Positions 1 through 16,419 of a stretch of DNA of 64,000 nucleotides are shown piece after piece. Numbering within the stretch: the first letter of the stretch is position 1; each line of letters begins with the position of its first letter. The translations under genes and the position numbers were made by a program. Source of the DNA: Phycisphaeraceae bacterium (GTDB lineage: Bacteria; Planctomycetota; Phycisphaerae; Phycisphaerales; UBA1924); NCBI GenBank assembly GCA_020639215.1, contig JACKHA010000012.1:7896-71895 (forward strand), in the 5' to 3' direction. The notes beneath the pieces were generated by a model. The model was not told the origin of the DNA and ran no database searches. It worked only from the letters and a program-made list of their open reading frames with translations.

Positions 1-1165
1 GGGCGTTCGGGAACGACGCGCCGAACGCGTCGGGCAGACGCGGCGTGGTGAGCTGCGGGGCGGGCTGGACAACGCCGCCGACCGTTCCGGAGGGCGGCGG
101 GTCCCACGGGAAGATCGGCTCGGGGATCACGCCGAGGACCTCGCTGCCCTCGTGGGTCTGCATGACCTGGGCGCGGATGGAGGCCAGGTCCGTCGTGGCG
201 ATGTCGATCAGGCCCGAGCCGCTCAGGATGAGCGGCGGACGCCGGTACCCGCCCTGGGTGGGGTACTCGGTGCCGTACAGCGCGGGGGCGACGACCCGGT
301 TCTTGCCGCGGAAGAACTCGCCGGAGGCGGGCAGCAACGCGATCTGGAGATCGTCGTCCTCCAGTCGGGCCAGCGCCGACGCCGTCAGCGGGTTGTACCC
401 CCAGATCGGGCCGGTCGGCGGGAACTCGGTTGCGATGGTCGGCGGCTGGACCAGCAGCGTCACCTGGCGCAGGAGGATCCAGTCGCTGGCGAACGCGTTG
501 GGGCCGGGACGCCCCGGCAGCGTCCCCACGCTCGGCTGGCCGAGGCGGCCCGCGAGCTGGTTCGGATTGAGCATCGGCGAGCCGGACTGCGACGTGTTCC
601 GCCAGCCGTAGGGGTCGGTCGGGTCGATGGGCGGCGAGACCGTGCCGTGCCCGTAGTAGATGGCGGCCTCGCCGGACCGGGCCACCAGCAGCGGGTGGAT
701 CGCCTCGCGGGCCGAGGCGAACTCGCCCTGGGCGAAGAACAGGAGCTCGTCGATGCGGCGCGGGCGCTGCCCGGCGGCGGGCTGGCCGCGGAACAGCGGG
801 ACGCGGACCTGGTCGTATCCGCCGTAGCCCACGCCGTCGGCGTCGTTGGTCACCTCGTGGCGGATGACCATGTACCCGTTGCGGGACATCCGCGCGAAGT
901 CCTGGGCCAGCGTGCGCTGGAGCAGACCGGCGTATGAGTTGAAGTACGCGGTGCGCCGCCCCTTCGTGACGGTGTCGCCGGTGGTCTTGAAGAGCTGGGC
1001 CAGGGCAAGCGCGATCAGCACCGAGGCCCCGACCGCCACCAGCAGCTCGAGCAGCGTGAACGCGACGCGGGCGGCGCGACGCGTGACGCCGACACGCGGC
1101 CCGCCACGCCCCGCCTTGCTGGAGGCGTGCGGACGGCTCGTGCTGTGCTTGGCCCTGCGGTTCAT
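1..1165 (-). CDS. prepilin-type N-terminal cleavage/methylation domain protein (giant pseudopilin D); 3' end runs off the window
   Basis: Not in the ORF track because no stop lies in the window. My reverse-complement translation from ATG 1165-1163 gives MNRRAKHSTSRPHASSKAGRGGPRVGVTRRAARVAFTLLELLVAVGASVLIALALAQLF... This is a basic leader, then an FTLLELLVAV N-methylation motif with Glu at +5, then a hydrophobic helix. The frame stays open to position 1 (>388 aa). Confidence 0.75.
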   Translation of the reverse strand, partial: MNRRAKHSTSRPHASSKAGRGGPRVGVTRRAARVAFTLLELLVAVGASVLIALALAQLFKTTGDTVTKGRRTAYFNSYAGLLQRTLAQDFARMSRNGYMVIRHEVTNDADGVGYGGYDQVRVPLFRGQPAAGQRPRRIDELLFFAQGEFASAREAIHPLLVARSGEAAIYYGHGTVSPPIDPTDPYGWRNTSQSGSPMLNPNQLAGRLGQPSVGTLPGRPGPNAFASDWILLRQVTLLVQPPTIATEFPPTGPIWGYNPLTASALARLEDDDLQIALLPASGEFFRGKNRVVAPALYGTEYPTQGGYRRPPLILSGSGLIDIATTDLASIRAQVMQTHEGSEVLGVIPEPIFPWDPPPSGTVGGVVQPAPQLTTPRLPDAFGASFPNA

Positions 1166-1187
1166 GCGTGCGCCCGATCCTGTCTCG

Positions 1188-1268
1188 ACCCTTCGTCGCG
1201 TGCTCGTCTCTCCGTCTCTTCTTCTCTACTTCTCTACTTTTCTACTTCTCTTTTCCTCTGATTCTCCG
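1188..1268 (-). repeat. purine-rich (sense strand) intercistronic spacer with shared 12-mer
   Basis: Lies between TAG of pseudopilin C (1271-1269) and ATG of pseudopilin D. The + strand is pyrimidine-rich (ctctccgtctcttcttctctacttctctacttttctacttctcttttcctctg). It contains ctctccgtctct at 1208-1219, which is also present at 6239-6250 and 9928-9939. Confidence 0.8.
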
Positions 1269-2426
1269 CTACCGTGCCACCCTGAACACCTGCACATCGA
1301 TCGGCACCACCGGGCTGGCCACGAGCGGGCTGATGTCCAGGCTGTTCACAACGTCCAGCGGCACGGGCGGATCGATGATCAGCACCGAGCGGTCGCCCCG
1401 CTCGACGCCCACGACCGTGTAGATGTTGCCCCGCCCGTCGACGATCTTCTGTCCGATCTGCCCGAGCAGGCGGGCCTCCAGTGAACTGGCCTGATAGTCC
1501 AGATCCAGGCGGTTGCGGTCGTCGGCGGTGCCGATGGTCAGCCCGCCGGCGTCGAACTGGTAGTCCTCGAGCACCGCCACGAACGGGATCGCGTACACGC
1601 CGCGCCCGTCGCCCGTCGGCACGCCCTGCTGGCTCACGCCGACCGCGACGCGCGGCTCCTGGGCTCGAAGCTCAGACTTGCCGCCCTGGGCCACGATCTC
1701 GGCCGCCAGGATCACGTCGGACAGGTTCAGCATCCGACCCAGCGCGCCCCAGGCCGCCTGGTCGCGCCGCTCGCGGCGCGGCACCTGGATGGCGCGGTCG
1801 ACCGGGCGGAGGAAGATCGCGATCTCGAGATCGTCGCGGTCGGTCGGGACGAGCCGGCTGCTGGCGTCGCGCTGGGTGAGCACACGCCGGGCGGCGAGCA
1901 CCCAGTCGACCCGCGGGTCGGCCCCGCGGAGGAACGCGCCGGGCGAGAGGCGGGCCGAGAGCGGGATGGCCACGTCGTCGCCGCGCGGATCGTTGTTGGG
2001 CCCGCTGGAGTTCTTCGAGAGGAACACGAGCTCGCCGGAGAACGCGTTGACGCCCATCCGCGAGGCGAAGGTCGGCTCGCCCGATCCGCCGAGATAGCCG
2101 GGCACCTGCCACGTGCCGTCGCCCGACCACCCGCCCGACGGGCTGGCGTCGTCCTGCAGGATGCCCCAGCCCTTGTCCTGGCCCGGCTCGTTGAGATCCA
2201 GGTTCGAGGCCAGCAGCGACTGCACCGAGCCGACCGCGATCTGGCCCTCGGTCGCCTCAACCGCCAGACGCTGCTCGCGCAGCACCACCGGGAAGATCGA
2301 GGCCAGCCCGAGGATCCCCAAAGACAGCACGAACACCGCGATGAGCACCTCGACCAGCGAGAAGCCGGCGCGGCCCGGCGCGCGGCGGCGCGAGGCCGCC
2401 TTGATGGAAGTGGTTGGCGTTGTCAT
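1269..2426 (-). CDS. prepilin-type N-terminal cleavage/methylation domain protein (giant pseudopilin C, 385 aa)
   Basis: ORF 1269..2747 trimmed to the internal ATG at 2426: MTTPTTSIKAASRRRAPGRAGFSLVEVLIAVFVLSLGILGLA (G|FSLVE motif plus helix). The ATG overlaps the upstream stop as ATGA (2423-2426). Confidence 0.8.
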   Translation of the reverse strand: MTTPTTSIKAASRRRAPGRAGFSLVEVLIAVFVLSLGILGLASIFPVVLREQRLAVEATEGQIAVGSVQSLLASNLDLNEPGQDKGWGILQDDASPSGGWSGDGTWQVPGYLGGSGEPTFASRMGVNAFSGELVFLSKNSSGPNNDPRGDDVAIPLSARLSPGAFLRGADPRVDWVLAARRVLTQRDASSRLVPTDRDDLEIAIFLRPVDRAIQVPRRERRDQAAWGALGRMLNLSDVILAAEIVAQGGKSELRAQEPRVAVGVSQQGVPTGDGRGVYAIPFVAVLEDYQFDAGGLTIGTADDRNRLDLDYQASSLEARLLGQIGQKIVDGRGNIYTVVGVERGDRSVLIIDPPVPLDVVNSLDISPLVASPVVPIDVQVFRVAR

Positions 2427-3553
2427 GGCGTGACCTCCACCACCCCGCCGTTGTACCGATCGACCGTGTACATCTGCGCGACCTCGGGGATCGCCGCGTT
2501 GACCGCCTCGGCGAAATCGAACTGGTAGTCCGGGCTGCTCGCGCTGGCCGGCGGCTCGTAGAAGCAACCCGTCGCGCGGTTCACGCCGCGGAAGCCCTGC
2601 GGCGCACCGTTGCTCGCGATCTGGCGGGCCAGCGCGCGGATGTCGTACAGCGCCAGCAGCGACACGGGACGCGTGAGCACCGTGTCCGAGCAGTCGTCGC
2701 CCAGCAGCAGCTCGCGGTTCTGCAGCGGGTACGCCGGCGTGCCCCACGCCTTGCCGAGCTGGCGGCGGATGTACACGCTCTGCTCCACCGAGCCGTCCAG
2801 GCGGAACCGCGGATCGGCCCAGGGATTCCCGCGCTGACGCCAGGGCGACGCGCCCCGACCGATCGCCAGGTCCGGCGCCAGCACCAGCCCGTCGGTCCGA
2901 TCATCGAACGCCACGCCACCCGTCGTGCCATCGAAACGCACCATGAACGACTGGCGGTACCCGCCCTGATTGCCCGGCGTGTCGTCGCGCCCCTGGCCAT
3001 TGCTCGTGCGATAGAACCCGCTCTCGGGGAACACCCAGTTGTCGATGGTCGGGTCGTAGCGACGCTCCCCGCCGCGCTCCTCGTACCACGCGTACGGCTC
3101 GCTCGCCTCGCCGGTCGGGATCGTGATCGTGCCCGCGGGCGCGAACCCGTTGACCATCCAGCCGCGCGGCAGCCCGATCTCCTCGGTCAGCGGGTCGATC
3201 GCCCAGACCGTGCGACCGTTGAACTCGCCGATGCTCAGGGCCGTCGCGATCGACGCCCGACCGCCCGGCTCGAAGAAGAACACCGCCGCCGAATCGTTCA
3301 GCCCGGCCGAGCGGACCGCCGCGTCCCGGGCCGTCGCCATCGCGACCCGGAAGTTGCTGATCGCCAGCGTTTGGTTGGTCGAGCGGAGCATGCCCACGAA
3401 CGCGGGCACCGCCACCGACACCACCAGCGCGATGATCGTGATCACCGCCAGCAGCTCGGTCAGCGTGAACCCGCGCCGGGCCGCGCCAAAGCCGCCGCGC
3501 GCCACCCGCGGCGTCGCCATCGGCATCCCGGATTGGCTCGCTGATCGCCTCAT
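2423..3553 (-). CDS. prepilin-type N-terminal cleavage/methylation domain protein (giant pseudopilin B, 376 aa)
   Basis: ORF 2423..3583 trimmed to ATG 3553, which forms an ATGA overlap with the upstream stop at 3550-3552. N-terminus is MRRSASQSGMPMATPRVARGGFGAARRGFTLTELLAVITIIALVVSVAVPAF. Confidence 0.8.
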   Translation of the reverse strand: MRRSASQSGMPMATPRVARGGFGAARRGFTLTELLAVITIIALVVSVAVPAFVGMLRSTNQTLAISNFRVAMATARDAAVRSAGLNDSAAVFFFEPGGRASIATALSIGEFNGRTVWAIDPLTEEIGLPRGWMVNGFAPAGTITIPTGEASEPYAWYEERGGERRYDPTIDNWVFPESGFYRTSNGQGRDDTPGNQGGYRQSFMVRFDGTTGGVAFDDRTDGLVLAPDLAIGRGASPWRQRGNPWADPRFRLDGSVEQSVYIRRQLGKAWGTPAYPLQNRELLLGDDCSDTVLTRPVSLLALYDIRALARQIASNGAPQGFRGVNRATGCFYEPPASASSPDYQFDFAEAVNAAIPEVAQMYTVDRYNGGVVEVTP

Positions 3554-4695
3554 CGCCCAAGCCTCACCACGTTGTCTTCCCACGCCTCGAACCGCACGAC
3601 CTCCTCGGCCACGCCCGGGCCAACCCGCAGCCGCTCCCGCAGCAGGTCGATCGGCTCGGTCCCGAACACCCCGTTCGGCCCCGCGCTCACGATCGCGTAC
3701 CGCGACGAGCGCAGCTGCTCGGGCACGCGCGGCCCGGGCTCCATGGGGTCGTCCCAGTCGCGCGGGTCACGCAGGACCAGCGGGATGTTGAGGTACGCCA
3801 GCACGCCCGTGGCCGTGCCCTGCACCTCCGACTCGGGGCTGGCTTCCCAGCGGTAATACCGGATGGCGGTGCCCGACACGCTGACGTACGCCACGCGATC
3901 GGGGTCCGCGTCCAACGCCGCGGGCGGCACCACGCCAACGCCGTGCTCGGCGTACTCATCGCTCGAGACGTACGACGACGCGGTTGCCTCGTCGCGGCTC
4001 AGGCCCAGGAACGCCTCGCGGACCGTCGCCTGCCCGCCGATCTGCCACCCGTCGCGGTTCGTGTACGACAGGCGCAGGCCCGGGCCATCAACCCCGTCCA
4101 CGCTCGCGCCCAGCGCCCCGCCCAGGACGATCGGCAGCGCGAACTTGCTGTACCGCGGGTCCTCGATCGGATCGAACAGCGGTGTCGGCTCCGAGTTCGG
4201 CGAGGTCGAGGCCCGCCCACGCAGGAACGTGGACCCGCCGTCCTGGTAGATCCGGTCGAACGTCGCCACGATCGGGTCGGCCGTGCCGCCGGGGCGCTGC
4301 ACCGGCCCCATCGTCACGCCACCGACGATCCGCGGCATCGCTGGGTGGCTGGGCAGGTCGATCGGGGCCCCGTCGTAGACCAGCGGCGGGGCCTGGTTGT
4401 TGAACGTGTTCTGGAACACGCCGATGCCGGTCTGGATCGTCGTGAGCAGCGACTGGTCGTTGGCCCGACGCGTGCTCCGAATCGCGAACTGGACGGCGAC
4501 GATCAGCAACCCCGCCAGCACCGCGATCACGAGGATGGCCACGAGCAGCTCGATGATCGTGAACGCACGCGGAGCGACCGCCGATCGACCGGCCCCACGA
4601 CGCTCCATCCGGTGCCGCCCCATCACGCACTGGCGGGGCCCGCATCGCCGGGTCCGCCCCGGTCCGATCCTGGTTGTCCCCGCTGGTGCGTTCAT
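3550..4695 (-). CDS. prepilin-type N-terminal cleavage/methylation domain protein (giant pseudopilin A, about 381 aa)
   Basis: ORF 3550..4806 trimmed to ATG 4695 (alternative ATGs at 4623 and 4608). Motif ...SAVAPRAFTIIELLVAILVIAVLAGLLIVAVQF with Glu at +5. The start is uncertain. Confidence 0.75.
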   Translation of the reverse strand: MNAPAGTTRIGPGRTRRCGPRQCVMGRHRMERRGAGRSAVAPRAFTIIELLVAILVIAVLAGLLIVAVQFAIRSTRRANDQSLLTTIQTGIGVFQNTFNNQAPPLVYDGAPIDLPSHPAMPRIVGGVTMGPVQRPGGTADPIVATFDRIYQDGGSTFLRGRASTSPNSEPTPLFDPIEDPRYSKFALPIVLGGALGASVDGVDGPGLRLSYTNRDGWQIGGQATVREAFLGLSRDEATASSYVSSDEYAEHGVGVVPPAALDADPDRVAYVSVSGTAIRYYRWEASPESEVQGTATGVLAYLNIPLVLRDPRDWDDPMEPGPRVPEQLRSSRYAIVSAGPNGVFGTEPIDLLRERLRVGPGVAEEVVRFEAWEDNVVRLGR

Positions 4696-4744
4696 CGCCG
4701 TCCCCTTTGCCCGCCCGCGCACGCCTTCTCTCGCCGTGCGCGGG

Positions 4745-4798
4745 CCCGAACTGCTCGCCCTCTTCCCTTCGTCGCTCCGTCGCTCCGTCGCTTCCAGC
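4745..4798 (-). repeat. purine-rich post-stop spacer containing the shared 18-mer
   Basis: + strand ctcgccctcttcccttcgtcgctccgtcgctccgtcgcttcc. The exact 18-mer cttcgtcgctccgtcgct at 4767-4784 lies 14 nt 3' (sense) of the gspF-like stop codon 4799-4801. Confidence 0.85.
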
Positions 4799-6097
4799 TC
4801 AAACATCGCCCGACGACGCGCCGCCCTGCAGGCTCTCGATCATGGCCACCAGCGGCAGGAACATCGCCACCACGATGGTGCCGACCATGCCGCCCAGCAC
4901 GACGACCATCAGCGGCTCGAGCAGCGAGACCAGCGACGCGACCGCGACGTTGACCTCCTCGTCGTAGTTGTCCGCGATCTTCAGGAGCATCGTGTCCATC
5001 TCGCCGGTCTCTTCGCCGACGTCGATCATGTTCACGACGATGGAGTCGCACGTCTTGCTCTCGCGCAACGGGCCCGCGAAGGACTCGCCCTCGCGGATCG
5101 AGTCGTGCACCTTGCCCAGGGCCTTCTCGAAGACCCAGTTGCCCGAGGTCTCCTTGGTGATCGTGATCGCCTCGAGGATCGGCACGCCCGCCGCGATCAG
5201 CGTCCCGAGCGTCCGCGTGAAGCGGGCGATGACCGTCTTCTTCACAAGCGTGCCGAAGATCGGGATCTTGAGCATCATCCAGTCCGTCGCCGCCCGCCCC
5301 GGGCCGGCCTTGCGGATCAGCTTCCACATCGCGAACGCAACGAACGGGAACGCGATCACGAACACGAACCCCGGCACCGCCTGGCCCGGCACCGCCCCGG
5401 CCATCCAGCGGCTGGTGTTCATCAGCCACACCGTCAGGCCCGGGAGCGCCACGCCGAAGTCCGTGAAGATCTCCTCGAACTTCGGGATGATGAAGAGCAT
5501 GATGAACGTGAGGATCGCCACCGCGACGATGATGACCGCCGCCGGATAGACCATCGCGCCGCGGATCTTCCGCTTGAGCTTCTCGCTCTTCTCCATGAAC
5601 TCGGCCAGACGCTGCAGGATCACGTCCAGCACGCCGCCGACCTCGCCCGCCGCCACCATCTTCGTGTACAGCTTGTCGAACGCCTTGGGGTGCTTGGCCA
5701 TCGCCTCGGAAAGCGACGCACCGCCCTCGACCTCCTCGCACACGCCGATGAGCGTGTTCTTCATCACGCCCGGCTTCTGCTGGCTCTCGAGGATCTGCAG
5801 CGACCGCAGCAGCGGCAGGCCCGCGTCCTGGAGCGTCGACAGCTGGCGAGTGAACAGCGTGAGCTGCTTGGCCGAGGCCCGCCCGATGGCGAACCCGCCG
5901 CCCTTCTTCTTCTTGGCCGCCGCGCTCGACGCCGGGTCGATCGCGCCGGTCTTCTTGACCTTCTGCTCGCGGACCTGGGTCGGGTAGAAGCCCTGGGCCT
6001 TGATCCGCTGGATCGCCTCTTCGGACGTCTTGGCGTCCACGGTACCCTTCTGGGGCTTGCCGGAGGCGTTCAGCGCTTCATAGGTAAACGTCGCCAT
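4799..6097 (-). CDS. gspF: type II secretion system F / PilC family inner-membrane platform protein (432 aa)
   Basis: ORF 4799..6196 trimmed to ATG 6097: MATFTYEALNASGKPQKGTVDAKTSEEAIQRIKAQGFYP, a typical GspF/PilC N-terminus. It has two internal repeats and hydrophobic segments (AAVIIVAVAILTFIMLFII, FVFVIAFPFVAFAMW, LMVVVLGGMVGTIVVAMFLPL). Confidence 0.9.
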   Translation of the reverse strand: MATFTYEALNASGKPQKGTVDAKTSEEAIQRIKAQGFYPTQVREQKVKKTGAIDPASSAAAKKKKGGGFAIGRASAKQLTLFTRQLSTLQDAGLPLLRSLQILESQQKPGVMKNTLIGVCEEVEGGASLSEAMAKHPKAFDKLYTKMVAAGEVGGVLDVILQRLAEFMEKSEKLKRKIRGAMVYPAAVIIVAVAILTFIMLFIIPKFEEIFTDFGVALPGLTVWLMNTSRWMAGAVPGQAVPGFVFVIAFPFVAFAMWKLIRKAGPGRAATDWMMLKIPIFGTLVKKTVIARFTRTLGTLIAAGVPILEAITITKETSGNWVFEKALGKVHDSIREGESFAGPLRESKTCDSIVVNMIDVGEETGEMDTMLLKIADNYDEEVNVAVASLVSLLEPLMVVVLGGMVGTIVVAMFLPLVAMIESLQGGASSGDV

Positions 6098-6157
6098 GCG
6101 GGGCACTCCGAGAGGCGTCAGAAATCCTGGGTCGCCGGTCCTTGGTGCTGAGTCGTG

Positions 6158-6197
6158 GTCCTGAGTCCTGAGTCCGTGGTCCTGGAGGTCGGGCAAC
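6158..6197 (-). promoter_or_regulatory. conserved 40-nt 5'-leader box, copy 1 (upstream of gspF-like gene)
   Basis: + strand gtcctgagtcctgagtccgtggtcctggaggtcgggcaac is 39/40 identical to 9816-9855. It ends 60 nt before the gspF-like ATG and contains tandem heptads (sense TCAGGAC). Confidence 0.6.
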
Positions 6198-6218
6198 CGA
6201 TCGCTCAGATCCGTCCGA

Positions 6219-6330
6219 TTGCCTGATGCCCGCCTCTCCTCTCCGTCTCTTTGTCTCTCTGTCTCCGATTACGAAACTCGATTCTCGAATCTCTGGTCTC
6301 TTCGTCTCTTCCCTTCGTCGCTCCGTCGCT
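6219..6330 (-). repeat. purine-rich post-stop spacer with shared 18-mer and 12-mer
   Basis: + strand is pyrimidine-rich (...cgcctctcctctccgtctctttgtctctctgtctcc...ctcttcgtctcttcccttcgtcgctccgtcgct). The 12-mer is at 6239-6250. The 18-mer at 6313-6330 abuts the gspE-like TAG (6329-6331). Confidence 0.85.
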
Positions 6331-8098
6331 ACTCCTCGGCGATCGTCTCCCGGACCACCTCGTCGATGGTCGTGAGCCCGTCGAAGATCGCCAGCAGGCC
6401 GCAGTCGCGCAGCGTCCGCATGCCGCGCCGCTTGGCGTGGTCGCGGATGACCGCGGTCGAGGCCTCCTTCATGACCAGCTCGCGGAGCTCGTCGTCCATC
6501 GACAGGATCTCGAAGATCGCCACGCGCCCCTTGTAGCCGGAGTTGTGGCACGCGTCGCACCCGCGCCCCCGGAAGAACTGCTTGCCCTTGACGTCCTCCA
6601 GGCGGAGCTGGAGCTCCATCAGCTCCTCCTCGGTGGGCGTGTACTGCTCCTTGCACGACTTGCAGATCGTGCGGCACAGGCGCTGGGCCACGATGCCCTC
6701 GATCGTCGCCGTCAGAAGGAACGCCTCCATGCCCAGGTCCACCAGGCGGATGATCGAGCTCGGCGCGTCGTTGGTGTGCAGCGTCGACATCACCAGGTGG
6801 CCCGTCAGCGACGCCTGCACCGCGATCTGCGCGGTCTCCAGGTCGCGGATCTCGCCCACCAGGATCACGTCGGGGTCCTGACGCAGGAACGAACGCAGCA
6901 GCTTCGCGAACGTCGTGCCCACCTCGGAGTTCGTCTGGCACTGGCACAGACCGTCGATGTCGTACTCGACCGGGTCCTCGGCTGTGAGGATCTTGGTCTC
7001 GATGTCGTTAAGCTCCGCCAGGGCCGCGTACAGCGTGGTCGTCTTGCCCGAGCCGGTCGGCCCGGTCACGATCACGATGCCGTTGGGCCGGTTGATCAGG
7101 CTGCGGAACAGGGCCAGGTCGTTCTCGCGGAAGCCGATGCGATCGAGGCTCAACTCGACGTTCGAGCGGTCCAGCACACGCATCACGACGCTCTCGCCGT
7201 GCATCGTCGGCAGCACCGCCACGCGGAGGTCCACCGGGCGCCCGCCCACCGTCAGCTCCACGCGACCGTCCTGCGGCAGACGCCGCTCGGCGATGTCCAG
7301 GTTCGCCATGACCTTCACGCGGCTCGTGATCGCCGGGCCCAGGTGCTTGGGCGGGGGCACCATCTCGTACAGCACCCCGTCGATGCGGTACCGCATCTTG
7401 AACTCGTTCTCGAACGGCTCGAAGTGGATGTCCGAGGCCTTGTCCTTGATCGCCTGCAACAGCACCAGGTTCAGCAGCTTGATCACCTGGTTGTCGCTGG
7501 CCGCCTCCGTCAGCTGGTCCAGGTCGATCGACGCGTCGCTCCGGGCCGACAGACCCGCGAACTTCGAGTCCGACGCCAGCGACGACACCACGTCGGTCAT
7601 CGACTCGGCCTTGGCGAAGTGCTTCTGCAGCAGGCGATCGATCGACGCCTCGTCCGACACCACCGCCTCGACCCGGAAGCCCATCAGCAGACGCAGGTCG
7701 TCCACCGCGCGGAAGTTGTCCGCGCTCTTCATCGCGATCTTCAGACGCTTGCTCGTCGGGTTGAACTCGATCGGCACGATCTGGTACGTCCGGGCGTTCT
7801 CCGCCGGCAGCGCCGACGCCACCGCCTCGGGCAGCTCCTTCACCTCCGACAGGTCTTGGTACGCCATCCCCGCCTGGCCCGCCAGCGCCGCCGCCACGTC
7901 GCCCTGCTGGCAGTACCCCAGCTCGACCAGCAGCTGCCCGAGCGGCACCTTGCGGGTCTGCTGGACCGTCAAGGCCTCGTGGACCTGGTCCCGGGTCACC
8001 TTGCCCATCTTCGTGAGCACGCGCCCGAGCTTGCGCCCCTTCAGCTCCGCCGGGTCGATATTGGGTTGCCCAACAGTCGCCATGCCGCCTCCAGCCAT
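6329..8098 (-). CDS. gspE: GspE/PulE-family secretion ATPase with N-terminal MshEN-type domain (589 aa)
   Basis: Walker A VTGPTGSGKTT. Asp/His boxes (DPDVILVGEIRD, GHLVMSTLHTND). Tetracysteine CRTICKSCK...CDACHNSGYKGR. The N-terminus carries two 24-aa motifs, KLGRVLTKMGKVTRDQVHEALTVQ and PLGQLLVELGYCQQGDVAAALAGQ. Confidence 0.93.
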   Translation of the reverse strand: MAGGGMATVGQPNIDPAELKGRKLGRVLTKMGKVTRDQVHEALTVQQTRKVPLGQLLVELGYCQQGDVAAALAGQAGMAYQDLSEVKELPEAVASALPAENARTYQIVPIEFNPTSKRLKIAMKSADNFRAVDDLRLLMGFRVEAVVSDEASIDRLLQKHFAKAESMTDVVSSLASDSKFAGLSARSDASIDLDQLTEAASDNQVIKLLNLVLLQAIKDKASDIHFEPFENEFKMRYRIDGVLYEMVPPPKHLGPAITSRVKVMANLDIAERRLPQDGRVELTVGGRPVDLRVAVLPTMHGESVVMRVLDRSNVELSLDRIGFRENDLALFRSLINRPNGIVIVTGPTGSGKTTTLYAALAELNDIETKILTAEDPVEYDIDGLCQCQTNSEVGTTFAKLLRSFLRQDPDVILVGEIRDLETAQIAVQASLTGHLVMSTLHTNDAPSSIIRLVDLGMEAFLLTATIEGIVAQRLCRTICKSCKEQYTPTEEELMELQLRLEDVKGKQFFRGRGCDACHNSGYKGRVAIFEILSMDDELRELVMKEASTAVIRDHAKRRGMRTLRDCGLLAIFDGLTTIDEVVRETIAEE

Positions 8099-8535
8099 CG
8101 TGCGGGCCGGCCCCTCGAGACCCCGCCGCCGGAACCGTTCCGCCGCGCCGTTCCACGCGGCACACCGAACCGATCCAAACGACCGAGCCCCGAGACCGGA
8201 CCCATCGGGTCCCCGCTCGGCCTGCCAACCCCGCGATGCCCCGGGCCGTCACCGGGTCGTCGAACGCCCAAAGGGGCCGCCGACCACCCGATCCAGGGCC
8301 GCCGTCGACCCCGCCCGAAGACACCCATCGAGCCCGCAGACCGAACGCTTTCCGGATCACCCCGGACCGCCCGTCCCGCCCGGTCCTACCCCGACCTGCG
8401 CCCCGCCTTCCCGGCCCCGGCCACGCCGAGGTCCAGAAACCCGTTCCGCATGCCGACACCGATCCCGTCGATGGCGAACATCAACCTGTTCGACCATCAT
8501 AGCCGGACTGATCCGCAATCCGAACGTCCGAAACG

Positions 8536-8568
8536 CTCAAAACCATATACGACATCTAGATAGTGTCG
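8536..8568 (-). terminator. AT-rich palindrome plus T-tract just 3' of pilT (weak intrinsic terminator, or promoter element for the gspE-like gene)
   Basis: Sense strand reads CGACACTATCTAGATGTCG followed by TATATGGTTTTGAG, 27 nt after the pilT stop (8595-8597). This is the most AT-rich spot in the locus. The stem is only 5-7 bp, so the call is weak. A GCGACA..TATGGT reading as a -35/-10 pair is an alternative. Confidence 0.3.
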
Positions 8569-8594
8569 CATGAGACACGCCAGAATCCCGTCGC

Positions 8595-9743
8595 TCAGGC
8601 CTTGGGCTTCGAGCCCTCCTTGCCGCCCACGCCGTCGTCGTCCTCGACATCCAGCTCCGTGCGACCAACGGTGCGGCCGATCTTGTGGACCTTGTCCGTC
8701 AGGTCAGCTGGATTCTTGCTCTTATCCACCATCTCCTCGGCGGAGATCATGCCGCGCGAGTACAGCGACCACAGGTGGTCGTCCAGCAGCTGCATGCCGA
8801 ACTTCTTGCCGGTCTGGATCATCGAATCGATCCGGAACGACTTGTTGTCGCGGATGAGGTTGGCGATGGCGGGGGTGACGACCAGGAACTCGTAGGCCGC
8901 CACCATGCCCGGCTGGTCCACGCGGCTGAGCAGGGCCTGGGACAGGACGCAGATCAGGGCGGTGGACAACTGCACGCGGATCTGGTTCTGCTGGGCCTGG
9001 GGGAAGGCGTCGACCACGCGGTCGATCGTCTTGGCCGCCCCGGTCGTGTGCAGGGTGGCGAACACCAGGTGGCCCGTCTCGGCGGCCCGGATGGCCGACT
9101 CGATGGTCTCCAGGTCGCGCATTTCGCCGACCAGAATCACGTCCGGGTCTTGGCGGAGGCATCGCCTCAGGGCCTCGGCGAAGTTTGGCACGTCGTTGCC
9201 GACCTCGCGCTGGTTGACGATCGACTTCTTGTGCTTGTGGTAGTACTCGATCGGGTCTTCCATCGTGACGATGTGTCGGTCCATCGACTGATTGATGAAG
9301 TCGATCATCGTCGCCAGCGAGGTCGTCTTGCCCGAGCCTGTCGGGCCGGTCACGAGGAACAGCCCACGCGGACGCCGGATCAGTTCCCGGCACATGTCGG
9401 GCAGGCCGATCTGCTCCAGCGTGAGCAGCTTGTTGGGGATCTGGCGGCAGACGATCGCCAGATCGCCGCGCTGGCGGAACACGGAAACGCGGAATCGGGC
9501 GGCCTCGCCGTAGGCGAAGCCGAAGTCGGTGCCGCCCTCTTCCTGGAGTTCCTGCTGGTTGCGCTCGGGGGTGATGGCCTTCATGAGGGCCACCATGTCC
9601 TCGGAATCCAGGATCTTGGTCTGGAGGTTCCGCAGGTGCCCGTGCAGGCGGATGGTTGGCGGACGCCCCACGGTCAGGTGGAGGTCCGAGGCGTTGAGCT
9701 TGACCACCGTGTCAAGCAGGCGGTCGATCTGCATCGTGGACAT
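8595..9743 (-). CDS. pilT: type IV pilus twitching-motility (retraction) ATPase PilT (382 aa)
   Basis: ORF 8595..9866 trimmed to ATG 9743 (alternative 9734): MSTMQIDRLLDTVVKLNASDLHLTVGRPPTIRLHG. Walker A VTGPTGSGKTTS, DPDVILVGEMRD, GHLVFATLHT, and the PilT signature PAIANLIRDNK. Confidence 0.93.
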   Translation of the reverse strand: MSTMQIDRLLDTVVKLNASDLHLTVGRPPTIRLHGHLRNLQTKILDSEDMVALMKAITPERNQQELQEEGGTDFGFAYGEAARFRVSVFRQRGDLAIVCRQIPNKLLTLEQIGLPDMCRELIRRPRGLFLVTGPTGSGKTTSLATMIDFINQSMDRHIVTMEDPIEYYHKHKKSIVNQREVGNDVPNFAEALRRCLRQDPDVILVGEMRDLETIESAIRAAETGHLVFATLHTTGAAKTIDRVVDAFPQAQQNQIRVQLSTALICVLSQALLSRVDQPGMVAAYEFLVVTPAIANLIRDNKSFRIDSMIQTGKKFGMQLLDDHLWSLYSRGMISAEEMVDKSKNPADLTDKVHKIGRTVGRTELDVEDDDGVGGKEGSKPKA

Positions 9744-9815
9744 GGGGGTCTCGCTGAGCAGTACTGGGTGCTGAGTGCCGAGTACCGGGTGGGGTTGTGG
9801 GCTGTCCTGAAACGA

Positions 9816-9855
9816 GTCCTGAGTCCTGAGTCCTTGGTCCTGGAGGTCGGGCAAC
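9816..9855 (-). promoter_or_regulatory. conserved 40-nt 5'-leader box, copy 2 (upstream of pilT)
   Basis: + strand gtcctgagtcctgagtccttggtcctggaggtcgggcaac has a single mismatch (9834 t versus 6176 g) to copy 1. It ends 72 nt before the pilT ATG at 9743. Confidence 0.6.
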
Positions 9856-9894
9856 GGGGTGCTCAAAACGGTCCGAGCATCCGAGGCTCTCGCC

Positions 9895-9990
9895 GTGCCC
9901 TGTCTCGCTGTCTCGCTGTCTCTTCCTCTCTCCGTCTCTGTATCTCTTCTCTTCGTCGCTCCGTCGCTTCGTCCCTTCGTCGCTTCCGGC
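9895..9990 (-). repeat. purine-rich post-stop spacer with shared 18-mer and 12-mer
   Basis: + strand gtgccctgtctcgctgtctcgctgtctcttcctctctccgtctctgtatctcttctcttcgtcgctccgtcgcttcgtcccttcgtcgcttcc. The 12-mer is at 9928-9939. The 18-mer at 9951-9968 lies 22 nt 3' of the pilB-like TAG (9991-9993). Confidence 0.85.
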
Positions 9991-11697
9991 CTAGTCCTGC
10001 GCCTCCACCTGGGCGACGCGGGCGATCTCGTCCGGCGTGGTCACGCCGGCGAGCACCTTCAGCTTGCCGTCCTCGACGAGCGACCGCATGCCGTTGGCGA
10101 CCGCGGCCTTGCGCACCTCCGGCAGCGGCGCCAGGTTGAACGCCAGGTCGCGGATCTGCGAGTTCATCAGCATCATCTCGAAGATCGCCTTCCGCCCGCG
10201 ATAGCCCGTCCGGTTGCAGTTCTCGCACCCGACGGCCTTATGGACCTTGCCAGCCCCGTCGCTGGCGCTCAGCCCGATGAGGCTCATGAACTTGGGGTCC
10301 GGGTTCGGATCGACCTGCTTGCACTTGGGGCACAGGATGCGGATGAGGCGCTGGGCCATGATCGCCTGGATCGACGAGGCGACCAGGAAGGGCTTGATGC
10401 CCATGTCCACCAGACGCGTGATGGCCGAGGGTGCGTCGTTGGTGTGCAGCGTCGAGAACACCAGGTGGCCCGTCAGCGCGGCCTGGATGGCGATCTCGCC
10501 GACCTCGCGGTCGCGGATCTCGCCGACCAGGATGATGTTGGGCGCCTGGCGGAGCATCGACCGCAGGATCTCGTGGAACCCCAGGCCGATGCCCTCCTTC
10601 ACCTGGCACTGGTTGATGCCGTCGAAGTTGTACTCGACCGGGTCCTCGGCGGTGATGATCTTCTTGTCGGGCTTGTTCAGGACGTCCAGGGCCGAGTAGA
10701 GCGTGGTGGTCTTGCCCGAGCCGGTGGGCCCGGTGACCAGGAAGATGCCGTTGGGGCGCCGGATGATCCGGTTGAAGATGGCCAGGTTGTCCTCCTCGAA
10801 GCCGAGGTTGACCAGGCCGATGCGGACCGAATCGGGGCGGAGGATACGGGCCACGACCGACTCGCCGTGGTAGGCCGGGCAGGCCGAGACGCGGAAGTCG
10901 ATGTCGGTGCCGTCAACGCCGAGCTTGATGCGTCCGTCCTGCGGGACGCGCTTCTCGGCGATGTTCATCGAGGCCATGAGCTTGAAGCGGCTGAGCACCG
11001 CGTTCTGCATGCGCTTGGGCAGGTTGTCGCGCTCGATGCACACGCCGTCGATGCGGTAGCGCAGGCGGACACGGTCGGCCATCGGCTCGATGTGCACGTC
11101 CGAGGCCCGCATCTTGACCGCCTCAGTGAGGATGCGGTTGCACAGGCGGACGATCGGGGCGTCCTCGCCCGCGATGTCGATCGACTTGTCCACCGAGCGG
11201 TCGACCGACCTGTCGATCGACTCCGAAACCAGCGACTCCTTCGCCGAGACCTCGCGCTCCTTGCTCTTGAGCGTGCCCTCGATGTAGGAGCGGATCTGGC
11301 CACGAGACGCGAGCTTGGGCTCCAGCTCCACGTTGAGGCGGAAGCGGAGCTTGTCCATCAGCTCGATGTCCATCGGGTCATGGACGAGCAGCTTGAGCTT
11401 GCCGTTGGCCTTGCCCAGCGGCAGGACGAGGTTCTTCTTGATCAGGTCGTCGGGCACGAGCGAGGTGTCGATCTGGTTGGCCGCGCCGTGGGCCGACAGA
11501 TCGACGTACTCCATGCCGAACTGGTTGGCCAGGGCCTTGGCGACGGCCTCTTCGCTGGCGAAGCCGAGCTCGGTCAGCACCTCGCCGAGGCGCTTGCCCG
11601 AGCCCTTGGCGACGGCGGCGGCCTTCTCGGCCTGCTCCTTCGAGATCGTCCGCCAGGACACCAGGATGTCGCCGAGTTTCGTGCGGGATCGTGCCAT
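9991..11697 (-). CDS. second GspE/PilB-family assembly ATPase with N-terminal MshEN-like domain (568 aa)
   Basis: Walker A VTGPTGSGKTT, APNIILVGEIRD, GHLVFSTLHTND, tetracysteine CPKCK...CENCNRTGYRGR. The N-terminus reads KLGDILVSWRTISKEQAEKAAAVA and RLGEVLTELGFASEEAVAKALANQ. Confidence 0.92.
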   Translation of the reverse strand: MARSRTKLGDILVSWRTISKEQAEKAAAVAKGSGKRLGEVLTELGFASEEAVAKALANQFGMEYVDLSAHGAANQIDTSLVPDDLIKKNLVLPLGKANGKLKLLVHDPMDIELMDKLRFRLNVELEPKLASRGQIRSYIEGTLKSKEREVSAKESLVSESIDRSVDRSVDKSIDIAGEDAPIVRLCNRILTEAVKMRASDVHIEPMADRVRLRYRIDGVCIERDNLPKRMQNAVLSRFKLMASMNIAEKRVPQDGRIKLGVDGTDIDFRVSACPAYHGESVVARILRPDSVRIGLVNLGFEEDNLAIFNRIIRRPNGIFLVTGPTGSGKTTTLYSALDVLNKPDKKIITAEDPVEYNFDGINQCQVKEGIGLGFHEILRSMLRQAPNIILVGEIRDREVGEIAIQAALTGHLVFSTLHTNDAPSAITRLVDMGIKPFLVASSIQAIMAQRLIRILCPKCKQVDPNPDPKFMSLIGLSASDGAGKVHKAVGCENCNRTGYRGRKAIFEMMLMNSQIRDLAFNLAPLPEVRKAAVANGMRSLVEDGKLKVLAGVTTPDEIARVAQVEAQD

Positions 11698-11943
11698 GAA
11701 CCGGTGTCACTCTCGCTCGGGTGCTGATCGGGACCGACACCCCGCCCCGGCCTGGGGGCCCGGACGACGATGCCTGGATAGGGAGAGGATGGTATCGCGC
11801 CGCACGCCCCGCCGGGAGCCCGCGTCGGTGGGATTCACGCCCGGAGCCGCCAACAATACCGGTTCACCCCGATCGACGGGCGAAGCGACGGGCCGATCGA
11901 CAGCCGTCGCGATGGGCGGATCGGCGGACGGAGACAGGACCGG

Positions 11944-12741
11944 ATGGCGGGTTCGAACGGACATGTCGAGATGAAGCCTTCCAAGAGCCACCCAGCCGGC
12001 GCCGAACGCGGCGGGCCGCCGCGTTTGCTGATCACCGCCGGCCCGACCCAGGAGCCGATCGACGCCGTCCGGTACATCGGGAACCGCTCGTCCGGGCGGC
12101 TTGGCGTGTCGCTGGCAGAAGAGGCCGCCCGTGAGGGGTGGCGCGTGACGCTCCTGCTGGGCCCGACGCCGCGGCAGCCTGCCGATTCGCGGATCGACCT
12201 CCACCGGTTCCGAACGACGGCGGACCTGCAGGCCCTGCTGGGCCAGCACCTGCCCCACTGCGACGTGCTGGTCATGGCGGCGGCCGTAGCCGACTATCGC
12301 CCGAAGATCGACGCCGCGACCCTGGGCGGAAAGCGTCGGCGGGTGGCCGAGGGTCTGACGATCGAACTCGAGGCCACGCCGGACCTTCTGGCCGGGTGCG
12401 CGGCCAGCCGGCGGGCGGACCAGACCCTGGTCGGCTTCGCTTTGGAGCCCCGCCAGGAGATGGTCGCCTCGGCCCGACGGAAACTGACGCGGAAGAAAGT
12501 GGATCTGATCGTCGCCAATCCTCTCGAAACGATGGACGCCGAGACGATCGAGGCCACCGTTTTCGGGGATGAGCCGACCGGCCTTGCCGGCGGGCGATCC
12601 ACCCCCGGCCCGATCGCCAAGACGGCGTTCGCCGGGTGGCTGCTTGGGGTGATCGGTGAGGTTCGGGAGCGGATGGCTCCCACAACAGGGGATGGCGCTG
12701 GCGAGGCGACTTCCGCTCGGAGCGACCATGCCAGACGGTGA
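11944..12741 (+). CDS. coaB: phosphopantothenate-cysteine ligase domain protein (stand-alone CoaB-like, 265 aa)
   Basis: LLITAGPTQEPIDAVRYIGNRSSGRLG and VLVMAAAVADYRP match the CoaB half of CoaBC. No flavoprotein (CoaC) half is present in this ORF. Confidence 0.7.
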   Translation: MAGSNGHVEMKPSKSHPAGAERGGPPRLLITAGPTQEPIDAVRYIGNRSSGRLGVSLAEEAAREGWRVTLLLGPTPRQPADSRIDLHRFRTTADLQALLGQHLPHCDVLVMAAAVADYRPKIDAATLGGKRRRVAEGLTIELEATPDLLAGCAASRRADQTLVGFALEPRQEMVASARRKLTRKKVDLIVANPLETMDAETIEATVFGDEPTGLAGGRSTPGPIAKTAFAGWLLGVIGEVRERMAPTTGDGAGEATSARSDHARR

Positions 12742-15815: not shown

Positions 15816-16229
15816 TCACGCCGCGCGACGCAGGAGGCCGGCCGCCAGCGTGTCGAGCAGGCGGTGGCGATCGGCGGCGTCGGCGAAGGACGTGAAGGCG
15901 GCGGCCATGCGGACGGGGCCGGGCACGCCGTCGTTGTCGGTCCAGACGATGCGCCCCATGGCCTCGACCGAGGGCGGGCCGTCGTCGAGGGTGATGGCGT
16001 CCGGGTTCAGGCTTCGCGGGAGCCAGCGGGGCAGGTTGACGCGGAGCGTGACGGGCGTGCCGGGGGGCAGGGCCTCGTCGAGTTCGAACTGGGCGCCGCC
16101 CTCGGCGATGTCGTAGGCGTGTCCCTCGAGGGTGCGATCGGCCCCGGCGATCTTGACCTCCACGCCCGTGTACATGGGCAGGGTGGCGAATCGCTCGTGG
16201 CGGCGGCGGTTGGTGGTTGGGGCGAGCAT
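15816..16229 (-). CDS. PilZ domain protein (137 aa)
   Basis: ORF 15816..16493 trimmed to ATG 16229: MLAPTTNRRRHERF... (RxxxR motif) and DIAEGGAQF (D/NxSxxG-type motif). Confidence 0.7.
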   Translation of the reverse strand: MLAPTTNRRRHERFATLPMYTGVEVKIAGADRTLEGHAYDIAEGGAQFELDEALPPGTPVTLRVNLPRWLPRSLNPDAITLDDGPPSVEAMGRIVWTDNDGVPGPVRMAAAFTSFADAADRHRLLDTLAAGLLRRAA

Positions 16230-16419
16230 GGGACGGCTCCGTTTGAGAGGGCACGTCCGGTATCGGCGCGGGAGGGGTGCGGCTTCAGCGTTCGGGCGGA
16301 AAGAGCGCGTTTGGTGCAGGAACGTGGGAGGCGTCCGATGGTGGCGCGAGATGTGCGCGTGGAGGGAGAACCGCGGGCTGGCGCCGCGCGGCTCGTGTGC
16401 GCGTCGGGCGTCGATGGAC

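What the first reader, a model, noticed from the sequence alone, without database searches (positions are those of the whole stretch)
1..11697. T2SS/T4P-like locus with three tandem secretion ATPases, and no small major pilin, secretin or prepilin peptidase in view
Seen: the minus-strand order is a GspE/PilB-like ATPase (568 aa), PilT (382 aa), a second GspE-like ATPase (589 aa), a GspF/PilC platform (432 aa), then four prepilin-like proteins of 381, 376, 385 and >388 aa. Established: canonical T2SS has one GspE and pseudopilins of about 130-330 aa, and T4aP uses PilB plus PilT with a small major pilin. Inference: this is a lineage-specific fibre or secretion machine mixing T2SS-like and retractile T4P-like parts. 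The locus continues past the left edge of the window.
Basis: partly seen in the sequence, partly recalled or inferred. Interest (0 to 1): 0.7.

Follow-up and report, generated by a model that had tools for sequence, protein, structure and literature searches.

The report
Planctomycete pilus operon, two assembly motors
This is a conserved nine-gene operon of Phycisphaerales (Planctomycetota) that encodes the motors of a retractable type IV pilus-like machine, unusually with two old and distinct assembly ATPases, plus five very large pilin-like proteins; it is an undescribed variant of a familiar machine, not a new kind.

Summary
On the minus strand of 1-11697 lie PilB-like ATPase E1 (568 aa), PilT (382), PilB-like ATPase E2 (589), a PilC/GspF platform (432) and four pilin-like proteins of about 380 aa or more. 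A public contig that is 100% identical to the window end continues the locus. The fourth pilin is 630 aa. A fifth gene encodes a 1,635-aa protein with a GspK-like N-terminus. The operon then ends. No secretin, prepilin peptidase, PilMNO or small pilin lies in the 64 kb window or in the 7.3 kb beyond it.

E1 and E2 are 42% identical. Each has its own orthologues at the same position in other Planctomycetota, so they are old paralogues. Both carry an MshE-type c-di-GMP motif and fall outside the proteobacterial GspE clade. The E1-PilT-E2 order is kept in 58 of 60 Phycisphaerales loci, and the five pilin-like genes in 56 of 62.

Best reading: the motor and priming/tip module of a retractile type IVa-like pilus. 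The "T2SS/T4P mixture" idea is not needed. AlphaFold models of the 630-aa pilin and of 1,200 residues of the giant are confident but match nothing in the PDB. Verdict: new variant of a known kind, moderate interest.

The parts
9991..11697 (-). pilB1 (E1): PilB/MshE-type extension ATPase, 568 aa, first gene of the operon
   Evidence: T2SSE 1.3e-128, MshEN and c-di-GMP motif NF053729 at 49.7 bits against a cutoff of 38. Best PDB match is full-length Geobacter PilB, 471 bits. Walker A/B and the catalytic core are >=95% conserved in 62 orthologues. Present in 58 of 60 loci.
8595..9743 (-). pilT: retraction ATPase, 382 aa
   Evidence: TIGR01420 PilT/PilU family, 446.7 bits against a cutoff of 319.1. 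Median 84% identity across Phycisphaerales loci.
6329..8098 (-). pilB2 (E2): second PilB/MshE-type extension ATPase, 589 aa, 42% identical to E1
   Evidence: T2SSE 2.7e-139, MshEN and c-di-GMP motif at 44.2 bits. Geobacter PilB 544 bits over the full length. Forms its own clade with the position-3 ATPases of other Planctomycetota, 99% bootstrap. Present in all 60 loci, including the two that lack E1.
4799..6097 (-). pilC/gspF-type inner-membrane platform, 432 aa
   Evidence: Two T2SSF domains, 3e-63. PilC(Myxo) 394 bits and GspF 390 bits, both below the equivalog cutoffs.
3550..4695 (-). P5: large pilin-like protein (~338 aa mature). Its N-terminal 66 residues are most like GspG-type major (pseudo)pilins.
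   Evidence: N_methyl/TIGR02532. [G/A]-F-T-L-x-E is conserved in 57 of 58 orthologues where the motif search matched. hhalign best hit is GspG, 97.7% over 66 columns.
2423..3553 (-). P6: large pilin-like protein (~349 aa mature), GspG/GspH-like N-terminus
   Evidence: TIGR02532 1.6e-6; weak GspH and Verru_Chthon cassette D hits. hhalign GspG 96.9%, GspH 96.5%.
1269..2414 (-). P7: large pilin-like protein (~365 aa mature), PilV/GspI-like N-terminus
   Evidence: TIGR02523 PilV 5.6e-7, N-terminus only. Consensus AFTLxEVLIAVxVLALGLLGL. hhalign GspI 94.6%, GspJ 94.8%.
1..1165 (-). P8: N-terminal 388 aa of a 630-aa pilin-like protein with a GspJ-like N-terminus. The rest lies past the left edge (L085 802-1529).
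   Evidence: AFTLLELLVAV motif. Continuation is 100% identical. NCBIfam GspJ E=0.048. hhalign GspJ 95.8%. AF2 of the 85%-identical homologue gives pLDDT 80 and pTM 0.84, with a 54-residue N-terminal helix followed by a beta-rich body. No PDB fold match.
1..1 (-). Beyond the window: gene K, 1,635 aa (L085 1707-6614), last gene of the operon. It has a GspK-like uncleaved-type N-terminus (RRG-TVLIIVLGTLAL, no Glu5).
   Evidence: The family has 443 members, all annotated 'hypothetical', with no Pfam domain. Three collinear weak matches to GspK by hhalign. AF2 of residues 436-1635 gives pLDDT 81 and pTM 0.85. No PDB fold match.

Best explanation
The locus is the core operon of a retractile type IVa pilus-like (T4aP-like) filament machine of Phycisphaerales. 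It encodes the cytoplasmic motors and the inner-membrane platform: two different extension ATPases (PilB1 and PilB2), one retraction ATPase (PilT) and PilC. It also encodes five pilin-like proteins in the canonical G/H-I-J-K order. I infer that these form the complex that primes assembly on PilC and ends up at the fibre tip.

Shown: the identity of the four motor/platform proteins; intact catalytic motifs in both PilB paralogues; an MshE-type c-di-GMP-binding motif in both; the old age of the duplication; conserved class III signal-peptide-like N-termini (Gly/Ala at -1, Phe at +1, Glu at +5) in four proteins; a GspK-like N-terminus without Glu5 in the giant fifth protein; co-conservation of all nine genes across an order.

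Inferred: (1) PilB2 is the core extension motor and PilB1 an accessory or alternative one, both feeding the same PilC and both opposed by PilT, possibly tuned by c-di-GMP. (2) P6-P7-P8-K form an H-I-J-K-like initiation/tip complex whose large, structurally unmatched extra domains, most of all the 1,635-aa cap, are the business end, for example for adhesion. (3) P5, with a GspG-like helix, may be the polymerising subunit, or else a small major pilin is encoded elsewhere. (4) The prepilin peptidase, and any alignment complex and secretin, are encoded elsewhere in the genome.
For: Domains and cutoffs. Full-length similarity of both ATPases to solved PilB structures (471-544 bits), against GspE matching mainly the C-terminal ATPase part and scoring lower (362-436 bits). 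Tree: GspE references form a 99% clade that excludes E1 and E2; the E2 clade has 99% support and the E1 clade 70-100%. Paralogue and position matrix. The same PilB-PilT-PilB-PilC order occurs in other Planctomycetota contigs L083, L084 and L094. Synteny: 58 of 60 and 56 of 62 loci; identities E1 72%, PilT 84%, E2 75%, PilC 74%, pilins and K about 30%. Two loci lack E1 but keep PilT-E2-PilC-pilins-K. Catalytic motifs are conserved. Pilin N-termini. Profile-profile best hits run P5->GspG, P6->G/H, P7->I/J, P8->J, K->K, which is collinear with the gene order. K keeps GspK's landmarks in order: the N-terminus, 'VDLSxxVNVNTA', 'ININTAPxxVLRxLP', and a C-terminal 'SDxYAVWFV...RRFxMVxDRS'. The operon ends after K in a complete chromosome and in the window's own contig. 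Planctomycete genomes are reported to encode PilD, PilQ and PilMNO elsewhere (PMC7397252).
Against: No major pilin, PilD, PilMNO or PilQ could be shown for this genome, because only the window and 7.3 kb beyond it are in hand. E1, E2 and PilC miss every NCBIfam equivalog cutoff, and E2 is nearer the GspE cutoff (622.5 against 630.25) than the PilB one (629.2 against 675.65). The H/I/J/K assignments rest only on the N-terminal helices (24-72 aligned columns), which all pilins share, so discrimination is weak. The K-GspK matches have probabilities of 9-37% each. Confident AF2 models of P8 and of K residues 436-1635 found neither GspJ, GspK nor PilY1 in the PDB. About half of the orthologues have Ala rather than Gly at -1. 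No pili, twitching or expression data exist for these uncultured organisms.
Confidence: 0.6

Rival explanations
1. It is a type II secretion-like machine. A short periplasmic pseudopilus built from P5 (GspG-like) and capped by P6-P8 plus K pushes exoproteins out, and PilT has been co-opted to reset it.
For: There are five pilin-like genes in G-H-I-J-K-like order straight after the platform gene, as in gsp operons. P5's best profile match is GspG over 66 columns. E2 is within 8 bits of the GspE equivalog cutoff. There is no small major pilin in view.
Against: The operon holds no GspC, L, M, N or D. E1 and E2 lie outside the 99%-supported GspE clade. They carry the PilB/MshE N-terminal c-di-GMP domain that classical GspE lacks. 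PilT is not a T2SS component, yet it is the best conserved gene here (84%) and is always between the two ATPases. P5 is as divergent (30%) as the minor-pilin-like genes; from my own knowledge, not tested here, GspG is usually the most conserved pseudopilin.
Confidence: 0.15
2. Two machines share one locus. E2, PilT, PilC, the pilins and K form one system, while E1 powers a different type IV filament system encoded elsewhere, and sits here only for co-regulation.
For: E1 is absent from 2 of 60 otherwise intact loci. E1 and E2 are old, separately conserved lineages. The nearest outgroup of E1 (P0253, 100% bootstrap) is a solitary ATPase in a virus-like contig with no T4P neighbours, so this lineage can work away from the module.
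Against: The E1-PilT-E2-PilC order is kept not only in 58 of 60 Phycisphaerales loci but also in distant Planctomycetota contigs with different downstream genes. This argues that the four proteins act together. Only one platform gene is present.
Confidence: 0.15
3. It is a DNA-uptake (competence) pilus. The retractile fibre binds DNA through its large tip pilins.
For: The PilB+PilT+PilC+minor pilin make-up is also that of T4aP competence pili (my own knowledge, plus the papers listed).
Against: No ComEA, ComEC or DprA lies in the 64 kb window. No DNA-binding domain was detected in P5-P8 or K.
Confidence: 0.05

Closest known systems
Type IVa pilus gene clusters of the pilB-pilT-pilC type (Myxococcus xanthus, Geobacter, cyanobacteria) together with the fimU-pilVWX-pilY1-pilE minor-pilin operon of Pseudomonas
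   Same: An extension ATPase with an MshEN-type N-terminus, the PilT retraction ATPase and the PilC platform lie side by side in that order. A block of about five pilin-like genes plus one very large tip-associated protein follows. The major pilin, peptidase and secretin may be encoded elsewhere.
   Different: A second, anciently diverged PilB sits between PilT and PilC. The motors and the minor-pilin-like genes are in one operon. The pilin-like proteins are 340-600 aa instead of about 130-300 aa. The large last protein starts with a pilin-like or GspK-like segment and shows no PilY1 beta-propeller (no Pfam hit; no fold hit).
Type II secretion system pseudopilin set GspG-H-I-J-K (e.g. ETEC, Xcp of P. 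aeruginosa)
   Same: Five pilin-like genes directly follow the platform gene. The N-terminal profile matches follow the G, H, I, J, K order. The last protein lacks Glu5 and keeps GspK-like 'NxNTA' motifs.
   Different: There is no GspC/D/L/M. PilT is present. The ATPases lie outside the GspE clade. All five proteins are 2-5 times larger. Similarity is confined to the N-terminal helices and short motifs.
Modular type IV pilins (Raynaud et al. 2021, PMC8179133)
   Same: A pilin module carries bulky extra modules and is probably displayed at the fibre tip. That paper cites GspK as such a case.
   Different: The extra modules here have no Pfam/InterPro signature and no PDB fold match. K, at 1,635 aa, is about twice the 860-residue 'most extreme case' of that survey. 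Whether K is processed like a pilin is untested.
MshE/PilB c-di-GMP-regulated extension ATPases (Vibrio MSHA pilus; Clostridium perfringens PilB2)
   Same: Both E1 and E2 pass the NCBIfam MshE-related c-di-GMP motif model.
   Different: Two such ATPases sit in one operon with a single platform. c-di-GMP binding is not tested.

Membership tests
Type IVa pilus (T4aP) system | PilB-type extension ATPase | tested here: inconclusive
   Family level is met twice: T2SSE+MshEN, full-length match to solved PilB structures, and placement outside the GspE clade. The TIGR02538 equivalog cutoff is not reached (590 and 629 bits against 675.65).
Type IVa pilus (T4aP) system | PilT retraction ATPase | tested here: met
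   TIGR01420 446.7 bits against a cutoff of 319.1.
Type IVa pilus (T4aP) system | PilC platform protein | tested here: inconclusive
   Two T2SSF domains. PilC and GspF equivalogs score equally and both fall below their cutoffs (394/700 and 390/424).
Type IVa pilus (T4aP) system | Major pilin with class III signal peptide | tested here: inconclusive
   No small pilin lies in the window or in the 7.3 kb beyond it. P5 has a GspG-like 66-residue N-terminus but is 338 aa and poorly conserved. The rest of the genome is not in hand.
Type IVa pilus (T4aP) system | Core minor pilins (FimU/PilV/PilW/PilX = GspH/I/J/K types) | tested here: inconclusive
   Four proteins have conserved G/A-F-T-L-x-E N-termini, and one has a GspK-like N-terminus without Glu5. 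The best profile hits are collinear with H-I-J-K, but only over the N-terminal helices. No fold match.
Type IVa pilus (T4aP) system | PilM/N/O/P alignment complex, PilQ secretin, PilD peptidase | not testable with these tools
   All are absent from the 30 window genes scanned (five short ORFs were not scanned) and from the flank.
Type II secretion system (T2SS) | GspE equivalog ATPase that binds GspL | tested here: not met
   TIGR02533 scores 565 and 622.5 bits against a cutoff of 630.25. Both proteins lie outside the 99%-supported GspE reference clade. Both have an extra N-terminal c-di-GMP-motif domain.
Type II secretion system (T2SS) | GspC, GspL, GspM and GspD encoded with the system | tested here: not met
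   None is in the operon or in the 30 window genes scanned. Compare the reference gsp operons.
GspK/PilX-type capping minor pilin (for gene K) | Sequence or fold match to GspK beyond the N-terminal helix | tested here: inconclusive
   Pfam T2SSK gives no hit. NCBIfam GspK gives E=0.0045, N-terminus only. Three short collinear hhalign matches have P between 4e-4 and 4e-3. GspK-like motifs are visible by eye. Foldseek on residues 436-1635 does not recover GspK.
PilY1/PilC tip adhesin (for gene K) | C-terminal PilY1 beta-propeller domain | tested here: not met
   No Pfam or NCBIfam hit. A confident AF2 model (pTM 0.85) has no PDB match with E<0.9.

The most novel reading that the evidence does not exclude
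Planctomycetota have a distinct, undescribed subclass of type IV filament machine. One PilC platform is served by two anciently diverged, c-di-GMP-sensing extension motors and one retraction motor. The fibre is built or capped by giant modular pilins with folds unlike any solved structure, including a 1,635-aa GspK-type cap that would be the largest pilin-like protein known.
Probability: 0.3. Interest if true: 0.65.

Novelty: new variant of a known kind. Interest (0 to 1): 0.45.

Why it matters
Type IV filament machines are normally described with one extension motor per platform. Here a two-extension-motor, one-retraction-motor module has been kept in the same order in several Planctomycetota lineages. 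That makes it a natural system for asking how different motors share one platform, and whether c-di-GMP chooses between them. The five pilin-like proteins, and above all the 1,635-aa last one, extend the 'modular pilin' idea to sizes and folds not yet catalogued. They are candidates for the adhesive or substrate-binding end of planctomycete fibres. The result also corrects a statement in the literature that planctomycetes seem to lack a retraction ATPase (10.1101/817700), at least for Phycisphaerales. None of this overturns current models; it is a well-defined lead, not a surprise.

Tried and rejected
- Exact-sequence look-ups of window proteins found nothing. The continuation past the left edge came instead from homologues of P8 and K.
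- A 2,551-aa antisense ORF in L001 was rejected as a shadow. Its third positions have 0.65 G+C, against 0.95 for the sense frame.
- Pfam and NCBIfam on K and P8 gave nothing useful.
- Profiles of P7, P8 and K against PDB sequences returned only the pilin N-terminal motif or nothing.
- Foldseek of two confident AF2 models against the PDB gave no match with E<0.9. This rules out a PilY1 propeller in K residues 436-1635 and fails to confirm GspJ or GspK folds.
- hhalign of whole families against GspG-K found only N-terminal helices. The first P6 run failed and was repeated.
- The Verru_Chthon cassette was considered. P6 gives a weak hit to protein D (29 bits against a cutoff of 70), and P8 and K match no cassette protein at E<=1, so I dropped it.
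- Rfam found nothing in 1-13000. The promoter and terminator scans were at chance level.
- I considered recent duplication of E1/E2 and rejected it.
- Literature searches found no description of this gene order. The search covers open-access papers only.


Full report
**1. What is there.** The window has 71% G+C, so long spurious ORFs abound. I therefore used third-codon-position G+C to choose frames. On the minus strand of 1-11697, eight consecutive genes have GC3 of 0.9-0.97. Profile searches identify them as follows:
- E1, 9991-11697, 568 aa: T2SSE plus MshEN.
- PilT, 8595-9743, 382 aa: TIGR01420, 446.7 bits against a cutoff of 319.
- E2, 6329-8098, 589 aa: T2SSE plus MshEN.
- A platform protein, 4799-6097, 432 aa, with two T2SSF domains.
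- Four proteins with a prepilin-type N-terminus: P5 3550-4695, P6 2423-3553, P7 1269-2414, and P8 from 1165 to the window edge.

**2. The surroundings.** A regular-expression scan of all six frames finds only these four pilin N-termini in the 64 kb window. Pfam scans of 30 of the 35 other predicted genes found housekeeping functions only; five short ORFs of 90-158 aa were not scanned. Examples are CoaBC, an RluA-methyltransferase fusion, M16 peptidase, GatA, BipA, glycosyltransferases, DnaK, PheT, SmpB and an ECF sigma factor. There is no secretin, A24 peptidase or PilM/N/O. E1 is the first gene of the operon, and its upstream neighbour is transcribed divergently.

**3. Past the left edge.** A scan of one genome per species with the platform protein returned 80 loci. 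All are from Phycisphaerales, Phycisphaerae or Planctomycetota MAGs. The closest, L001, is 86-93% identical in DNA. Homologues of P8 and of the downstream gene led to contig JAGQOE010000417.1 (L085). Its first 801 bases are 100% identical to window 1-801, so it is the true continuation. It shows three things:
- P8 is 630 aa.
- A further gene, K, encodes 1,635 aa.
- An unrelated secreted PHP-like protein follows.

In the complete chromosome CP054186.1 the operon likewise ends after K. In L059 a convergent accC follows. The unit is therefore nine genes: pilB1-pilT-pilB2-pilC-P5-P6-P7-P8-K.

**4. Conservation.** I ran tblastn of the nine proteins against the 80 loci.
- E1-PilT-E2 lie in order upstream of the platform gene in 58 of 60 loci with enough sequence. 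The other two (L018, L079) lack only E1.
- P5-P6-P7-P8-K lie in order in 56 of 62 loci.
- Median identities are E1 72%, PilT 84%, E2 75%, platform 74%, and about 30% for each pilin-like protein and for K.

This is a strongly selected operon with fast-evolving, presumably surface-exposed parts.

**5. The two 'GspE-like' ATPases.**
- They are 42% identical.
- Both keep Walker A/B, the catalytic Glu region and the His box at >=95% conservation among orthologues.
- Most orthologues keep the tetracysteine motif.
- Both pass the NCBIfam model for the MshE-related c-di-GMP-binding motif (49.7 and 44.2 bits; cutoff 38).
- Both miss the PilB and GspE equivalog cutoffs.
- Against solved structures, both align end to end with Geobacter and Myxococcus PilB (471-544 bits). 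Vibrio GspE scores lower (362-436 bits) and matches mainly the C-terminal ATPase part.

A search of 1.84 billion cluster representatives shows that E1 orthologues form one tight group, with the next relatives at about 50% identity. Those relatives come from other Planctomycetota. Three such contigs (L083, L084, L094) carry the same PilB-PilT-PilB-PilC order. In two of them a HisKA sensor kinase follows; in one, another set of large pilin-like genes follows.

Identities sort by position. Position-1 proteins are 47-51% identical to each other, position-3 proteins 48-52%, and cross-position pairs 40-43%.

I built a neighbour-joining tree (474 columns, 100 bootstraps, PilT as outgroup). Six annotated GspE/XcpR references group together at 99% and exclude E1 and E2. 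The E2 clade has 99% support. The E1 clade has 100% support with its nearest outgroup and 70% in its wider form. Deeper nodes are unresolved.

Conclusion: these are two ancient paralogues, neither of them a classical GspE.

**6. The pilin-like proteins.** Across about 60 orthologues each, P5-P8 keep [Gly/Ala](-1)-Phe(+1)-[Thr/Ser]-Leu-x-Glu(+5). K keeps Arg-Arg-Gly followed by a 21-residue hydrophobic segment without Glu5, as GspK does.

The NCBIfam hints are weak but ordered: P6 GspH, P7 PilV, P8 GspJ (E=0.048), K GspK (E=0.0045). I built reference GspG/H/I/J/K alignments from six annotated gsp operons and ran hhalign. The best partners were:
- P5 -> GspG, 97.7% over 66 columns.
- P6 -> GspG/GspH, about 96.7%.
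- P7 -> GspI/GspJ, about 94.7%.
- P8 -> GspJ, 95.8%.
- Three separate segments of K, each -> GspK, collinearly: the N-terminus; 'VDLSxxVNVNTA' against GspK 95-111; 'ININTAP..VLR' against GspK 213-239. P values are 4e-4 to 4e-3.

All these matches are short, and the pilin helix is shared by every family. The assignments are therefore leads, not proofs.

AlphaFold2 with homologue alignments gave confident models. The 85%-identical P8 homologue has pLDDT 80 and pTM 0.84, with a 54-residue N-terminal helix and a beta-rich body. K residues 436-1635 have pLDDT 81 and pTM 0.85. Foldseek against the PDB found nothing with E<0.9 for either. There is thus no PilY1 propeller, and no recovered GspJ or GspK fold. 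K has no Pfam domain, and its 443 detected relatives are all 'hypothetical' proteins of Phycisphaerales.

**7. Interpretation.** The PilB-PilT-PilC core, the MshEN-type ATPases, the absence of any T2SS-specific gene and the block of five pilin-like genes fit a type IVa pilus-like machine best. The operon supplies the motors, the platform and the priming/tip complex. The peptidase and any envelope-spanning parts must be encoded elsewhere, as is common for T4aP. A Gemmataceae genome is reported to encode PilD, PilQ and PilMNO as well as PilB, PilC and PilT (PMC7397252).

The unusual features are these:
- The second extension ATPase, fixed between PilT and PilC since before the Planctomycetota lineages sampled here (L083, L084, L094) diverged.
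- The size of the pilin-like proteins (340-600 aa mature).
- The 1,635-aa last protein, about twice the 'most extreme' modular pilin (860 aa) in the survey of Raynaud et al. (PMC8179133).

Because two natural loci lack E1 but none lacks E2, I take E2 to be the core motor and E1 an accessory or alternative one. This is inference. Whether P5 is the polymerising subunit is open.

**8. Known or new.** I found no paper describing this operon or the double-PilB module. A preprint even states that planctomycetes seem to lack the retraction ATPase (10.1101/817700), which this locus contradicts for Phycisphaerales. Public annotations call the ATPases PilB, GspE/PulE or even TadA, and the rest 'hypothetical'. 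It is a new variant of a known kind. Interest is moderate (0.45).

Noticed in passing
window 1195-1266, 4752-4794, 6234-6340, 9899-9999: Every larger gap between operon genes holds a pyrimidine-rich tract on the + strand. On the mRNA it is purine-rich, with GAGAnnnn/GGAG units in an 8-nt period. These tracts stand out in a 71% G+C genome. They could be ribosome-binding or translational-coupling sequences, or protein-binding (GGA) sites.
   Followed up: no
window 6158-6218 and 9816-9876: A 61-nt direct repeat, 87% identical, lies about 60-130 nt upstream of the pilC and pilT start codons. None is expected by chance. It is found only in the two closest relatives, L001 and L002, so it is a young, species-level element.
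   Followed up: partly
window 8099-8594: A 496-nt spacer separates pilT and pilB2. It has no ORF supported by codon bias, no Rfam match and no consensus promoter. A possible internal promoter or leader.
   Followed up: partly
window 15819-16640 (-): A PilZ-domain (c-di-GMP receptor) protein lies 4 kb upstream of the operon. This may be relevant, given the c-di-GMP motifs in both PilB paralogues.
   Followed up: no
window 12653-14986 (+): A fusion of an RluA-type pseudouridine synthase and a class I methyltransferase, with a Gly/Pro/Arg-rich N-terminal extension. It remains the divergent neighbour region of the operon in most Phycisphaerales loci.
   Followed up: no
L093 10001-11701 (JGI Ga0307376_10001116): The closest outgroup of E1 (P0253, 49% identity, 100% bootstrap) is a solitary PilB-like ATPase. 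It sits in a contig of many small same-strand ORFs (NUDIX, MazG-like, Thg1, RNase T, NADAR, TnpB) that looks viral, and the same protein is carried by 16 contigs. Possibly a phage-borne pilus ATPase.
   Followed up: no
proteins P0241-P0249, P0251, P0252, P0254, P0257-P0261 and others: Many cluster representatives of about 980-1,080 aa contain two T2SSE-type ATPase regions in one polypeptide. These would be naturally fused double secretion ATPases, or merged gene calls.
   Followed up: no
L060-L067 (Phycisphaera-like lineage), downstream of pilC: These loci keep E1-PilT-E2-PilC at 60-77% identity. The genes after pilC show almost no similarity to P5-P7 or K, so the pilin block has been replaced or has diverged beyond recognition.
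   Followed up: no
L083 15615-17153 and L084 16167-17636: In other Planctomycetota, a HisKA/HATPase sensor kinase (PilS-like position) rather than pilins follows the PilB-PilT-PilB-PilC module.
   Followed up: no
E1 and E2 orthologues (e.g. L005): The C-terminal tetracysteine (zinc) motif is missing in 22 of 62 E1 and 12 of 71 E2 orthologues. In L005, the one locus where I looked at both, it is missing from both paralogues.
   Followed up: partly
L001 13578-21233 (-): A 2,551-aa open frame runs antisense to P7, P8 and K. It is an artefact of high G+C: its codon-position G+C is 0.95/0.5/0.65, whereas the sense frame has 0.65/0.5/0.95. This is a warning for automatic gene calling in these genomes.
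   Followed up: yes
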